A stretch of DNA of 64,000 bases from Rhina ancylostomus (lineage: Eukaryota). Location of the stretch: the NCBI GenBank assembly GCA_030265395.1, contig JARFYF010000051.1, positions 25,602,201 to 25,666,200 on the forward strand, read 5' to 3'. How positions within the stretch are numbered: position 1 is the stretch's first letter; each line of letters starts with the position of its first letter. Below are positions 9,001-21,000 of the stretch, piece by piece. The position numbers were made by a program.

Positions 9001-12000
9001 TTGCAATTGAAACTAAGTGCCTTACTTTCTTGGTCTATAATTGCAGAGATAATAGAACCTACAGTTATAACGCTGCAATTAATATTTTCAGATCAGAGAG
9101 GCAGGACGATGTTAAGCAATTTTTCTTTGAAAGAGGGCCAGTAATGTGAGTATTGGGATAGATGCAATTTTTGGACAGCAGCCCGAAGAATTGAGAGTTG
9201 GCTGCTGGTTTGGCTGCTGCAGGGCCTTATGAATGTGTACCAGTGGTAACCGTCCATTCCCTACTTTTGGCTGCAAGCGTCTGTCAACGGTAGTTTCTAC
9301 AATGAGGGTTTATGGCAACTAATGGACTGTCCCAATCACTCCGGATAAAATGCATGACCAGGTCCCTTCAGCAGAATTCACTTCGGGTCTACTTTGCCCA
9401 ACTCTCAAAAATTGACATGGTTAAGACAAAATCTGAGTAACTGTAGTCTTATTTAAAACTGATGTTCATTCCATGCAGTTCCTGAACATGTTAACTGTTT
9501 CATATTCTCAACAATGAACTGCTTAAAAGTAATCAATGTTTTGTCTTCCTACTGAATTCAATAATGTGGGATGGAAGATAAATGTATACGAGGTGGAACA
9601 GCACCTGACTTATTCATCCAATTGGAATACAGTTAGTTCCCAGTAATAAAAAATTCACTTCTCAACTCAGACAAACATCAGTGATGCATAAGTAATTATA
9701 ACCTAAACAAAACACTACAATAAGAACATATATCACAATTATCAATCCAGAACAGTTATTTTTTCCCAACTATGTAGGTATTGGCTATCTTTGCTGCAAG
9801 ATACACTAGATCATTTTTAATCTTCACAATGATAACAGAAATAATAAATCATATTAATAGTTACAGTATTTAAAAAACAATATATTTGAGTCAGTTGGTT
9901 GTTCAGGTTAAAGGGGCAATTATATCTTGGGATGCTTTAAAATGTTCTACAAGTAGTTTGTGTATCCACTGAAGTTACATTTTAAGTTATTGACAATTCA
10001 TATAATTTACTTTTAAATTTTCCTTGCCTGATGCTACTTCAGCTTTGAGCATGGGGTTGATTACACTAGCTTTGAATGCCCGTTATATAAAGTCACATAC
10101 TTGGTTAGTCTGTCGATCAGATCCCTGCCTTACCGTAGTTGTCTTTATTCGCCCACCTGGCTGTGTGCAGGTCCAGCCTGATTTATTCATTAACAAATTG
10201 CAGCCTTCTCCTTCCAAACAGGGAAGCATTTCACACCATTGTCTAGTTTTTACAATCCGTGCTGAAAAATTAAAGAAAAATATACATTAGTCCTCTGACA
10301 TTCTACCTTGTTAGGAAAGACAGCCTAACTGAAATGATTAGATCTGGAAAATACAAACAAAGACACAAGAGATTCTGCAGATGCTGGAATCTGGAGCAAC
10401 ACAAAGTGCTGGAGGAACTCAACAGGTCAGGCAGCATCTATGAAGGGAAATAAACAGTCGACATTTTGGTCGAGACCTTCATCAGGACTGGAAAGGAAGC
10501 GGGCAGAAGCCAGAAGCCAGAAAAACCCATTTGTTTCTTCAGAGCAAGTTACCCTCAGGACTTTTTTTTTAGCCCTTTCATATCCTTTCCTATCATTATT
10601 AACATTTATTTCAAGATTGTTTTTGAGAGGGAGAGGATAAGTATGGGATCTCTATTGACACTTTGCAAACTCAAAGTGAGTCATCCTGAATGGGTTCAAC
10701 TAAATTCCTTAATCACAACCTCAGAAGACCACCTATTAATTTTACCATACCAACCATCATTATTAAAAGCCAAGAAAGTCTGCAAAATCAGTGCCAAGTT
10801 CTTGGAGTCAAGCTCATCAGGAACTATAACTATTGTGATGGCCGCAAACCTTTCAGAAACATACATTACTGGATCCTCTGGGGATTGTCTGCTATTAACA
10901 GCAGAAAATAATAGCTTGGATTTCACACTGCGGGTGAGGGCTGAGGTGGTGGGATGGATAAGCAATGAGTCATCAATGCCTTTGATATCATTGAGCCAGG
11001 TGCTTGACAAACTCCTCCTACCCCATTTCTTCTCCCCATCATTATGCTACAATTCCATGACCCACATTTGCAATGCAGGGCAAGCATTTCAAAGCAATCC
11101 CAATCCCAATGGGTTTATTCTAAAATGAGGGAGAGAAATAAAGCGTATGGTGCAGCCTTTAAATGGTTTAACCCAGTTAAAGGGAAGCATCATTTTTCTG
11201 TATTAATGGCTAAAGCAGCTGCATCTTGATGGAATGTGAACAGCTGGCAGTGCTCCAAACATCTTACATGTGTCTCTGGAGATTCACATAGCACAAATTA
11301 GGGCCAGAAGCACACTTCTGTTGAACTCCGAGGGCAGGAGGCCCTTGATGGAGACTGGACACTGGGAGGGGCCAGAGGTTCAAAGTGTTACTTCCAATTC
11401 CAAGAAATGTCACAAAATAGAGGTTCAGTAACCCCATAAGGGTAGCCATGATGAGTCTTAGCACATGCATGGCTCAGGCACCTCATTATTTAAAGATTAC
11501 CTTAGACATCTCATTGCACAATACACAGCTCAGGTATCTCAGTACACAATATGAAGCTCAGGCACATTCTCACAATCTTTCTTCCCTCAGTAAATGGGTT
11601 CCTGGGGAAATATACTTTATCAAAGTGCTGCCTCAAGTAAGCTCTTTCACTCAAAATCATTGTCAATTTATTTACTGCTGCCAAGTGCACTCCCAGTCTT
11701 CAAGGATATGATCTTTGGGGATAGTACGATTCTCCATCTTGGGACGTGTCAATGCATATCACTGGCTTCTCTCTCTCCACCTCCAATTCGCATACCACCC
11801 GCGCCCGCCCTCTCCCACTCCCTCCACCTGCCACACTTACAAAAGCTCAAATAAAATATGCATTGACCTAGAAATCCTTTCATTGCTGTGAAAAACTAAA
11901 CCAACATTGTGTCATGGGCCTATGCTTTTTGGGCAATGTTCACCTCACTGCAAGGTTCTACTGAGCTAAGGTGTTGCACATAAAATTACTCTGCCATTGG

Positions 12001-18000: not shown

Positions 18001-21000
18001 GCTCTGGTTTTCTCCCACATCCCAAAAAAACCTGAGGTTTGATAGTTTAATTGAGCACTCTAAACCCTAGCATGTAAGTAAATGGTAAAATTTAGGGAAG
18101 AGATAGAGGGACATGGGAAAAATAAAATGTGCTTGGGTAGGATTCACATATAAAAAGGGTGCTTGATTATTGGTGTGGACTCAGTTGGCCGAAGGGCCTG
18201 TTCCTGTGCTGATTCATGATTCTCTGTGAATTTTTGTTTCATTTTTATCCATACACAATGCTAAAGAAGATCAATAGTGTAACGATGGAAAAAACAGGTT
18301 GCTCATACAGTACCTTTTCATAATTCTCAATAAGAATCTCAACCACAATGTTCTGAAATTTAATGTTCATCATCGCTGCCACAGTCTCCTCTTGAGATCT
18401 CATTAGCGTTGGCCCAAAAATAACACCCAAATTAGAAACAGTCATCAGGTTTTTTTGACTGTGAGTAGACACCCTGAAATTATAGAATATGAAAATATTT
18501 AAGTACTGTGTACAGCTGTGTCTGCATTTCAAATGTATTGTTAATTAGAAGATAAATATTAAAATAAAATAGCTGAATCTCTAATAATCCTAGCAAATTA
18601 GCTGAAAGAAATTATTAAAGTCCAGCTTATTATCATCCATCTCAAGCAACTTCTAGTTGCTTTCTCTACTAAGGATCTCTCCTGTGTACAAGCCACCTTT
18701 GCTGTCGTACCTACTGTTAGCTCCATATATCCATCGTCCTTGTGTAAATTACTTGCACTAAAACTGACTGTTTAGTTTTGGAACTTGAGCCTTTACAAGT
18801 TGTTAATTNNNNNNNNNNNNNNNNNNNNNNNNNNNNNNNNNNNNNNNNNNNNNNNNNNNNNNNNNNNNNNNNNNNNNNNNNNNNNNNNNNNNNNNNNNNN
18901 NNNNNNNNCAGATACTATCACTCACATACACATTAAGGACAATTTACAGTGGCCAATTAACCTACCAACCTGCATGTCTTTGGGATGTGAGAGGAAACTG
19001 GAGCACCCAGAAAGAATCCACATGGACAGTACCCGAGGTCAGGATTGAACCCAGCTCTCTGGTACAGTGAGCCAGCAGCTCTACTAGCTGTGCCTCTGCA
19101 TAAAATGAATGAGGTGAATTGAACTGCATAAACTAGACCCGGAAGATGGAAGCATATTTTATGTTGGGAGTGCATTAGTTCAATAGACTCGCTTTCCTCA
19201 TTATATATCCTAATAAATACAAAACCAATTAGGAATCCTGCTGATAATCTATTATTCAGGTTTGCATTCAAAACTTCTTTTTTCAAACTCTCTATATATA
19301 GAACAAATAATGAACTGCAAATAAGTTTAGTTCCTTTATATTTGGTTTTCTTGTACAAACTCAAATGATCAATGTATTGGCAGAGTACAGAAATTATTAT
19401 AGTTATTGAGATGAAGAACACACCTGTCATTAAAAAATTAGTACTTGCTAGCAAACAGCATATGGTAGTTCTTTGTGGAAAAGGGGACATTTGAATGTGA
19501 CCTTGTTCTACTTGGAAGTGCACAGAATATTGTTATATTGACAAACATAATTGCAAAATTCTGTGCACCTTGCAAATAATTATTACAGGGAGCTGGAACT
19601 GAAGAACGAACATTGTGGATCATGGGGACCTCCACTGTGATCTCTGCTGCAACATCACACTAGAGGAAACACTTAACAGATCAATAGATCTCCCNNNNNN
19701 NNNNNNNNNNNNNNNNNNNNNNNNNNNNNNNNNNNNNNNNNNNNNNNNNNNNNNNNNNNNNNNNNNNNNNNNNNNNNNNNNNNNNNNNNNNNNNTTAACA
19801 GATCAATAGATCTCCCTAACCAAGCAACTGTGCCTATTTTAAAAGGTTAGTATCAACAAGTACAATTCATACAGTGGGAATAATAATCCACGGCCTATTA
19901 CATTTTTGCATGTTGCAGAATTGAATCTTATCCCAAACATTCACACTTCTCATATCCCCTTATGATATAGAAGGAGGCCATTCTGTCAGCTCTCAGAACA
20001 ATTTAATCTATCCCCGTCACTTATTTTCCCTGTATTCTTTCAGNNNNNNNNNNCCCCTTAGTACTCCCAGATTCTATCTGTAGCCACTTATGCTAAGGAT
20101 AATTTCCGGTAAACAATTAACCTAATGGCCAGCCGTCACTGGGTTGTGGAAGAAATCGGATTAGTTGGAGGAAACCCGTGCAGTTACAAAAGACAACACC
20201 AGAGGTCTAGATTAAACTCGGGTCACTGGAGCCATGAGGGAGTAACACTATTAGTGCTATGCGTGATCAGCAACATGATATACACATGAAATTCTTCCAA
20301 AATGTATCATGCTATCCTCCATGCATATGGCAGCTGTGCACTGAGGCCACAGGTATGCACAATGTGCAATAAACAACTGACACCGTCCCACCAATTTCTA
20401 ACTGTGAATACACAGTTTGTGAGTGTGATGGTAACTAAGGCAATGGTAGGTGAAGGCAAGCTCCTCCATTCTAACCTGGCTGGACCTTTGCCAGAGAGGC
20501 TGACAATTCCTCTTGAATGGTCCTGAGATCATCCTTTTGCAAAGCAAGATCTTTTTCTAGTTGCCTTGCAATCCCCAACCATATAGTCTCTGCCTGGAAG
20601 ACCATCTCCGGTGGTACACTGTCCTTTGTCCAACCAAGGCTTCAGTATGCACCCATATAAGCTGAGCCCCATTCAAAATTGCCCAAAGTGCCATGAAGCA
20701 GTTGTTCCCAATGGGCACTGCCACCTGAAATAAAATGCTGGCATGGCTGAAAATGGTGGAAGAAAGTCTCTGCTTCTTGCACAAATTTGGCCTAAAATGA
20801 ATTTTATGCAAAGATGACCATGACTCAGAATTCTAATCTGCATAATGCATTGCACATTATATACTTTGGAATATCACTCCCCCAAAGCCTTTCCCTGGGT
20901 TGAAGAGCTCCTGGCTCATTTTATCTGTAGGAAGGCCACTTGATAATATTGTTGCACATTTACAAACTTGTTTTATTCACTTCAGGATCTTAAAGAGTAT

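What the first reader, a model, noticed from the sequence alone, without database searches (positions are those of the whole stretch)
10134..18473. Exons of two unrelated genes (ARHGAP42-like RhoGAP and TAFA5) about 8 kb apart on the same strand of one ungapped contig
Seen: an intact internal RhoGAP exon (18314-18473) lies directly upstream of an intact internal TAFA5 exon (10134-10261), both on minus, with no N between 1856 and 18808. Neither the remaining RhoGAP exons (Ser/Pro-rich region, SH3) nor TAFA5 exons 1-2 were found between them. Known: both are internal exons of multi-exon genes, and the human orthologues are unlinked (ARHGAP42 11q22, OPHN1 Xq12, TAFA5 22q13). Inference: the genes cannot simply be in tandem. 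Either they are nested or interleaved on the same strand, which is rare and needs mutually exclusive splicing, or one exon is a transposed or duplicated orphan, or the contig is misassembled. My exon search was by eye and could miss a divergent exon.
Basis: partly seen in the sequence, partly recalled or inferred. Interest (0 to 1): 0.75.

Follow-up and report, generated by a model that had tools for sequence, protein, structure and literature searches.

The report
Two unrelated exons, probable assembly misjoin
A perfect ARHGAP42 exon and a perfect TAFA5a exon do lie 8 kb apart on one strand of this shark or ray draft scaffold, but the ARHGAP42 exon sits alone on about 0.6 kb at a contig end between a repeat and a gap, so the pairing is most likely an assembly error.

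Summary
Both exons are real and correctly placed. 18314-18473(-) encodes 53/53 residues of chondrichthyan ARHGAP42 (aa 516-568). 10134-10261(-) encodes 42/42 residues of elasmobranch TAFA-5a exon 3. Both have AG/GT splice sites.

No other exon of either gene lies anywhere in the 64 kb. Only 2 of 300 scanned ORFs hit Pfam, and they are these two exons. Tandem and fully nested arrangements are therefore excluded.

The ARHGAP42 exon has only 579 bp of unique sequence (18230-18808). On one side is a ~350-bp interspersed repeat that occurs six times in the window. On the other is a 100-N run that cuts a second copy of that repeat. A LINE-like remnant follows at 17151-17579. The two genes show different contig lengths in 6 of 6 ray-finned fishes with chromosome-scale contigs (>17 Mb) for both.

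Best reading: a chimeric join in a short-read draft (about 0.55). Main rival: a recent DNA-level copy of one ARHGAP42 exon inside TAFA5a intron 2 (about 0.25). Reads and other elasmobranch genomes could not be consulted, so this stays open. Interest is low.

The parts
18314..18473 (-). Single internal ARHGAP42 exon, the last exon of the RhoGAP domain (aa 516-568). One leading base completes a codon; the exon ends on a codon boundary.
   Evidence: 53/53 identity to four chondrichthyan ARHGAP42 proteins, AG/GT sites, Pfam RhoGAP 5.6e-07
10134..10261 (-). TAFA5a exon 3 (short form). Two leading bases complete a codon; the exon ends on a codon boundary.
   Evidence: 42/42 identity to elasmobranch TAFA-5a, AG/GT sites, Pfam TAFA 3.8e-20
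10101..10133 (-). 33-nt extension of TAFA5a exon 3 up to an alternative donor (CAG|gtgtgt). It encodes the 11 residues found in Hypanus sabinus TAFA-5a isoform X1.
   Evidence: 11/11 identical to the tail of P0121, 8/11 to Rhinoraja P0122
18230..18808 (.). All the unique sequence attached to the ARHGAP42 exon (579 bp: 335 bp of upstream intron, the exon, 84 bp of downstream intron). It forms the end of contig 1856-18808.
17882..18229 (+). Interspersed repeat copy A (about 350 bp, SINE-like), starting 84 bp downstream of the ARHGAP42 donor
   Evidence: six copies of the family in the window
17874..17881 (+). Candidate target-site duplication, left copy (ATTTTTGT); the right copy is at 18230-18237
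   Evidence: an exact match of 8 or more bases in 252 of 19114 control window pairs (1.3%). The last two bases may belong to the repeat head, so this is equivocal.
18809..18908 (.). 100-N run 335 bp upstream of the ARHGAP42 exon; not filled
18909..19090 (-). Repeat copy B of the same family, inverted relative to A, with its 3' part cut off by the N run
17151..17579 (-). 143-aa stop-free ORF that looks like the C-terminal remnant of a chordate multi-copy (LINE-like) element
   Evidence: Atlas scores 0.92-0.93 to chordate 'hypothetical protein' clusters, one with PF09004 on 94% of members (a lead only); no Pfam hit

Best explanation
The juxtaposition is an assembly artefact. Contig 1856-18808 of this short-read-style draft scaffold joins sequence from the TAFA5a locus (exon 3 with its conserved alternative donor) to a short piece of the ARHGAP42 locus. 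The false junction lies somewhere in 10262-18313, most probably in the repeats at 17151-18229.

Shown: both exons are native-looking pieces of their genes, and each is the only exon of its gene in 64 kb. The ARHGAP42 exon is attached to 579 bp of unique sequence at a contig end, between a multi-copy repeat and an N run. The assembly breaks at copies of that same repeat elsewhere in the window.

Inferred: a contig extension or gap-closing step ran through a repeat and continued into the flank of another copy, or two loci were joined there.

Which locus owns the remaining 45 kb (18909-64000) cannot be told. It holds no recognisable exon of either gene.
For: (1) Lone exons. tblastn with 5 chondrichthyan ARHGAP42 and 6 elasmobranch TAFA-5a proteins finds one exon each, and 245 tiles add nothing. 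Only 2 of 300 scanned ORFs of 55 aa or more hit Pfam, and they are these two.

(2) Position. The ARHGAP42 exon is 335 bp from the N run 18809-18908 and 84 bp from repeat copy A.

(3) Fragile assembly. There are 11 N runs in 64 kb, of 9 to 584 N. Contigs of 786 and 249 bp lie just upstream. Two of the six copies of the repeat family (B at 18909, C at about 60148) abut N runs.

(4) Perfect conservation. 53/53 and 42/42 residues are what is expected if each exon is simply the functional exon of its own gene.

(5) No linkage elsewhere. ARHGAP42 and TAFA5/5a clusters show different longest-contig lengths in 6 of 6 ray-finned fishes with chromosome-scale contigs (>17 Mb) for both: Erpetoichthys, Acipenser ruthenus, Huso huso, Xyrauchen texanus, Triplophysa dalaica and Clarias gariepinus. 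Three more species listed for both (Silurus asotus, Prochilodus magdalenae, Carassius auratus) also differ but have a sub-chromosomal contig for at least one gene and were left out.

(6) The two exons cannot make an in-frame product. The ARHGAP42 exon spliced to TAFA5a exon 3 reads HGL then a stop. TAFA5a exon 2 spliced to the ARHGAP42 exon reads 8 codons then a stop.
Against: No read, mate-pair or independent-assembly evidence was available, so the misjoin is not demonstrated.

An 8-bp direct repeat flanks repeat copy A exactly where a target-site duplication would be (chance 1.3%). If genuine, both flanks of copy A come from one locus, and the false junction cannot be inside copy A. It would have to lie further down, for example in the LINE-like remnant, which has no second copy in the window.

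Repeats are frequent in this sequence, so an exon near one is not unusual in itself.

The fish comparison uses cluster-level contig lengths, and teleosts have extra paralogues. No same-species pair was available for any shark, ray or chimaera.
Confidence: 0.55

Rival explanations
1. Real orphan exon. A recent DNA-level copy of a small ARHGAP42 fragment (one exon with its intron flanks) was inserted into intron 2 of TAFA5a, for example by ectopic repair or a small segmental duplication. It is not part of a working RhoGAP gene. If spliced into TAFA5a mRNA it would bring a premature stop.
For: The intron flanks and both splice sites are kept, so it is not a processed retrocopy. It is a lone exon. 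The candidate target-site duplication around repeat A argues that the exon's 3' flank is truly contiguous with 17881 and below. Contig continuity runs from 1856 to 18808.
Against: Zero amino-acid changes in 53 codons means the copy would have to be very young. No junction signature, terminal repeat or second boundary can be seen, and the upstream side ends in an N run. The pattern is equally produced by a chimeric contig, and the window looks like a short-read draft where such joins would be more common than very young inter-chromosomal exon copies (my recollection and inference, not tested).
Confidence: 0.25
2. Truly interleaved genes. In this lineage ARHGAP42 and TAFA5a overlap on the same strand. 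TAFA5a exon 3 lies in the ARHGAP42 intron after the GAP domain, and TAFA5a exons 1-2 lie upstream among earlier ARHGAP42 exons, all outside the window.
For: Both exons are perfectly conserved, have good splice sites and share a strand. Both genes are recalled to have very large introns, so missing neighbours within 64 kb are not decisive.
Against: It needs at least two intronic breakpoints that leave two conserved genes intact. The genes show different contig lengths in 6 of 6 ray-finned fishes with chromosome-scale contigs for both. None of the 120 best hits listed for the ARHGAP42 exon carries the TAFA Pfam domain, and none of the 120 listed for the TAFA5 exon carries RhoGAP. Cross-splicing would be out of frame in both directions.
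Confidence: 0.05
3. The window is the ARHGAP42 locus and the TAFA5a exon is the copied or misplaced piece.
For: Nothing in 18909-64000 identifies the locus, so ownership of most of the window is open.
Against: The TAFA5a exon lies 8.3 kb and 8.5 kb from the two ends of its contig. It also carries a 33-nt downstream extension with an alternative donor that matches a Hypanus isoform 11/11, so at least its near flank is native TAFA5a sequence.
Confidence: 0.1

Closest known systems
Chimeric contigs and repeat-mediated false joins in short-read draft assemblies
   Same: A foreign unique segment of a few hundred bp sits at a contig end, reached through a multi-copy repeat and followed by a gap. The neighbouring contigs are tiny (249 and 786 bp) and N runs abut copies of the same repeat.
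   Different: Not demonstrated, because no reads were available. A possible target-site duplication around the nearest repeat argues against a junction inside that copy.
Unprocessed (duplicated) pseudogene fragments, or orphan exons, inside introns of other genes
   Same: A single exon with its intron flanks and splice sites lies inside another gene's presumed intron, with no neighbouring exons.
   Different: Such fragments usually carry substitutions or frame defects. This one is 53/53 identical to proteins of lineages as distant as chimaeras.
Nested genes (a whole gene inside an intron of a host gene)
   Same: Exons of two genes lie on one stretch of DNA.
   Different: Nested genes are complete within the host intron. 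That they are mostly on the opposite strand is recalled. Here neither gene is complete between the other's exons, and both are on the same strand.
Exon shuffling by LINE 3' transduction
   Same: An exon with flanks lies next to retroelement remnants.
   Different: No element lies upstream in the right orientation followed by a tail and a target-site duplication enclosing the exon. The adjacent copy A points its 3' end at the exon from the downstream side, and copy B is cut by the gap.

Membership tests
ARHGAP42 (GRAF-type BAR-PH-RhoGAP-SH3 protein) | RhoGAP domain sequence, closest to ARHGAP42 rather than ARHGAP26, ARHGAP10 or OPHN1 | tested here: met
   Pfam RhoGAP 5.6e-07. 53/53 identity to four chondrichthyan ARHGAP42 proteins. 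Among the 120 best hits listed, every gene-specific name is ARHGAP42, 42a, 42b or RHG42, and none is a different paralogue.
ARHGAP42 (GRAF-type BAR-PH-RhoGAP-SH3 protein) | A locus that also carries the BAR, PH, other GAP and SH3 exons | tested here: not met
   No other ARHGAP42 exon in 64 kb. No BAR, PH or SH3 Pfam hit in 300 ORFs. N runs and sequence outside the window were not examined.
TAFA5 / TAFA-5a | TAFA-domain sequence with the conserved cysteines of exon 3 and the family's exon boundaries | tested here: met
   Pfam TAFA 3.8e-20. 42/42 identity to elasmobranch TAFA-5a. Boundaries agree with isoforms.
TAFA5 / TAFA-5a | Exons 1, 2 and 4 at the same locus | tested here: inconclusive
   Exons 1-2 are absent from the window. 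That TAFA5 has very large introns is recalled. Exon 4 encodes only two residues and cannot be found by protein search.
Tandem neighbouring genes | The 3' exons of the upstream gene and the 5' exons of the downstream gene lie between the two exons | tested here: not met
   Nothing in 10262-18313, which has no N.
Nested gene pair | One complete gene inside one intron of the other | tested here: not met
   Neither the remaining ARHGAP42 3' exons nor TAFA5a exons 1-2 lie in the interval.
Processed retrocopy | Loss of introns, with adjacent exons fused | tested here: not met
   The exon is bounded by AG and GT with non-coding flanks. The flanking protein sequence of ARHGAP42 is absent.
Assembly chimera | No reads or read pairs span the junction; the exon is single-copy in the genome and missing from its own gene | not testable with these tools

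The most novel reading that the evidence does not exclude
The adjacency is real. A very young, still perfect copy of one ARHGAP42 exon, with working splice sites, sits in intron 2 of TAFA5a on the sense strand. Its inclusion would stop TAFA5a translation after 8 further codons. It would then be a ready-made poison exon or raw material for exon shuffling, caught soon after the DNA-level transfer.
Probability: 0.25. Interest if true: 0.4.

Novelty: not a real feature. Interest (0 to 1): 0.15.

Why it matters
If it is an artefact, the value is practical. Gene models built on this scaffold could fuse or truncate ARHGAP42 and TAFA5a, and ARHGAP42 may appear to lack aa 516-568 elsewhere in the assembly. 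If it is real, it would be a young inter-locus exon copy inside a conserved brain-expressed gene. That would be a modest but clean example of how exons reach new genes.

Tried and rejected
Elasmobranch synteny: the listing of cluster members on 10 elasmobranch ARHGAP42 and TAFA-5a clusters was meant to compare chromosomes within one species. A third protein search added no shark or ray species with both genes listed.

It was replaced by scans of stop-free ORFs. Of 333 ORFs of 55 aa or more, 300 were scanned. The 33 shortest, 55-58 aa and all beyond 31 kb, were dropped.

Long ORFs: Pfam on the 10 longest gave only a sub-threshold SpvD match, 16.8 bits against a cut-off of 25, which I treat as noise.

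RNA searches: Rfam at E <= 1 on 9-21 kb, Rfam at gathering score on the whole window, and ARAGORN all found nothing. The repeat family therefore could not be shown to be tRNA-derived. That label is only recalled.

Base composition: GC and CpG of the 579-bp segment (0.335 and 0.31) against its neighbours (0.37-0.43 and 0.14-0.26) is too small a sample to mean anything.

Literature: a search for ARHGAP42 together with TAFA5 found 0 papers. A search on the four GRAF paralogues gave only listings irrelevant to synteny (titles and abstract starts seen, nothing read). Supplements were not consulted.

The 224-aa ORF at 10454-11125(+): no family, two weak repetitive hits, and Atlas scores below the useful range.
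Full report
On the minus strand, 18314-18473 is bounded by ...tttcag|G and AAG|gtactg. After one leading base it reads 53 codons without a stop. These 53 residues are identical to aa 516-568 of ARHGAP42 in a sawfish, two sharks and a chimaera. 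A search of the exon alone returned 2347 proteins. Among the best 120 listed, every gene-specific name is ARHGAP42, 42a, 42b or RHG42.

10134-10261 is bounded by ...ttttcag|CA and ACG|gtaagg. After two leading bases it reads 42 codons. They are 100% identical to TAFA-5a of Hypanus, Rhinoraja, Chiloscyllium and Hemiscyllium, against 86% for the primates listed. I therefore take the window for an elasmobranch, not for human.

The exon boundaries agree with alternative isoforms. Local tblastn E-values are 1e-25 to 1e-34. There is no N between 1856 and 18808. The two exons were searched one by one.

**What else is there.**
- Twelve full-length queries (5 chondrichthyan ARHGAP42, one sturgeon ARHGAP42, 6 elasmobranch TAFA-5a) found one exon each. 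All other hits had E >= 0.27.
- 245 forty-residue tiles with permissive settings gave nothing better than E = 0.003 per tile, on the wrong strand and with an internal stop. That output was cut, but it was sorted, so the top was seen.
- Of 333 stop-free ORFs of 55 aa or more, 300 were scanned against Pfam. Only the two exons matched.
- Rfam and ARAGORN found nothing.

The window is therefore intron-like DNA with two lone exons. Tandem genes and a fully nested gene are excluded for the ungapped interval 10262-18313.

**Anatomy around the ARHGAP42 exon.** Reading the minus strand, the order is:
1. Repeat copy B (19090-18909), whose 3' part is cut by the N run.
2. The N run 18908-18809.
3. 335 bp of unique sequence.
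4. The exon.
5. 84 bp of unique sequence.
6. Repeat copy A (18229-17882, inverted relative to B).
7. The LINE-like ORF, about 300 bp further on.

The repeat family has six copies in the window. Two of them (B and C) abut N runs. The next contigs upstream are 786 and 249 bp long, and the window has 11 N runs of 9-584 N. That is the look of a short-read draft, which is my inference.

The exon thus hangs on 579 bp of unique DNA at the very end of a 17-kb contig. Its only physical link to the TAFA5a exon runs through repeats.

**Against a junction inside copy A.** An exact 8-bp direct repeat (ATTTTTGT) flanks copy A at 17874-17881 and 18230-18237. Matches that long occur in 252 of 19114 control window pairs. 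I chose the test windows after seeing the sequence, and the last two bases may belong to the repeat head. I count this as equivocal. If genuine, it moves any false junction further down, but it does not separate a chimera from a real duplication.

**Linkage elsewhere.** The cluster tables give a longest contig for each cluster. ARHGAP42 and TAFA5/5a differ in all 6 ray-finned fishes with chromosome-scale contigs (>17 Mb) for both:

| Species | ARHGAP42 contig (Mb) | TAFA5/5a contig (Mb) |
|---|---|---|
| Erpetoichthys calabaricus | 337.5 | 356.8 |
| Acipenser ruthenus | 64.5 | 70.0 |
| Huso huso | 67.8 | 71.4 |
| Xyrauchen texanus | 40.5 and 42.0 | 28.5 |
| Triplophysa dalaica | 21.1 | 17.1 |
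| Clarias gariepinus | 30.6 | 33.8 |

Three further species appear in both listings (Silurus asotus, Prochilodus magdalenae, Carassius auratus). Their contig lengths also differ, but at least one contig in each is sub-chromosomal, so I left them out of the count. These are cluster-level values, and teleosts have extra paralogues. No shark, ray or chimaera appears in both lists, and the tool that could have shown this was switched off. Elasmobranch synteny therefore stayed unchecked.

**Function if the adjacency were real.** The ARHGAP42 exon ends on a codon boundary, while TAFA5a exon 3 needs one base from its predecessor. Splicing the first to the second reads HGL and then a stop. Splicing TAFA5a exon 2 to the ARHGAP42 exon reads 8 codons and then a stop. 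No fusion protein is possible, and inclusion could only truncate.

**Verdict.** I put an assembly misjoin at about 0.55 and a very young DNA-level orphan copy at about 0.25. The reverse ownership of the window gets about 0.1, and true interleaving about 0.05. Perfect conservation of both exons fits the artefact best: each would simply be the working exon of its own gene. None of this can be settled without reads or a second assembly.

Two literature searches gave nothing relevant. No paper was read beyond the listings.

Noticed in passing
window 10101-10133 (-): TAFA5a exon 3 has a second donor 33 nt downstream (CAG|gtgtgt). The extra 11 codons match the tail of Hypanus sabinus TAFA-5a isoform X1 at 11/11 and Rhinoraja at 8/11. 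This is a conserved alternative splice form and a hint that the species is close to stingrays.
   Followed up: partly
window 10454-11125 (+): A 224-codon stop-free frame lies just upstream of, and antisense to, TAFA5a exon 3. Only 1 of 200 dinucleotide-matched simulated sequences of the window's length reached that length. Yet it has no Pfam family, only two weak multi-stretch hits among 1.84 billion proteins, and Atlas scores of 0.86 with low recognition. Unexplained.
   Followed up: yes
window 17882-18229, 18909-19090, 20191-20242, 33178-33269, 43862-44093, 60157-60316: Six copies of one SINE-like repeat family of about 350 bp. Three of them lie within 17.9-20.3 kb, and two abut N runs. No tRNA or Rfam match.
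   Followed up: partly
window 17151-17579 (-): A 143-aa ORF resembling multi-copy chordate 'hypothetical proteins'. Atlas scores are 0.92-0.93, and one cluster has PF09004 on 94% of members. It is probably the C-terminal remnant of a LINE. No second copy in the window.
   Followed up: partly
window 29847-30234 and 45110-45489: A 388-bp dispersed repeat pair at 69% identity. The first copy ends 43 bp before the N run at 30277.
   Followed up: no
protein P0001 (Acipenser sinensis, flagged UNVERIFIED_CONTAM by its source): This 930-aa ARHGAP42-like model contains the same exon twice (aa 408-478 and 547-617 both match 18296-18508). It is another draft-assembly model in which this exon is duplicated.
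   Followed up: no
protein P0318 (Mobula hypostoma 'TAFA-5 isoform X2'): A second TAFA5-type gene in a ray, 76% identical to TAFA-5a and on a 98.2-Mb contig. Batoids therefore seem to have two TAFA5 paralogues, and the window's exon is of the 5a type.
   Followed up: no
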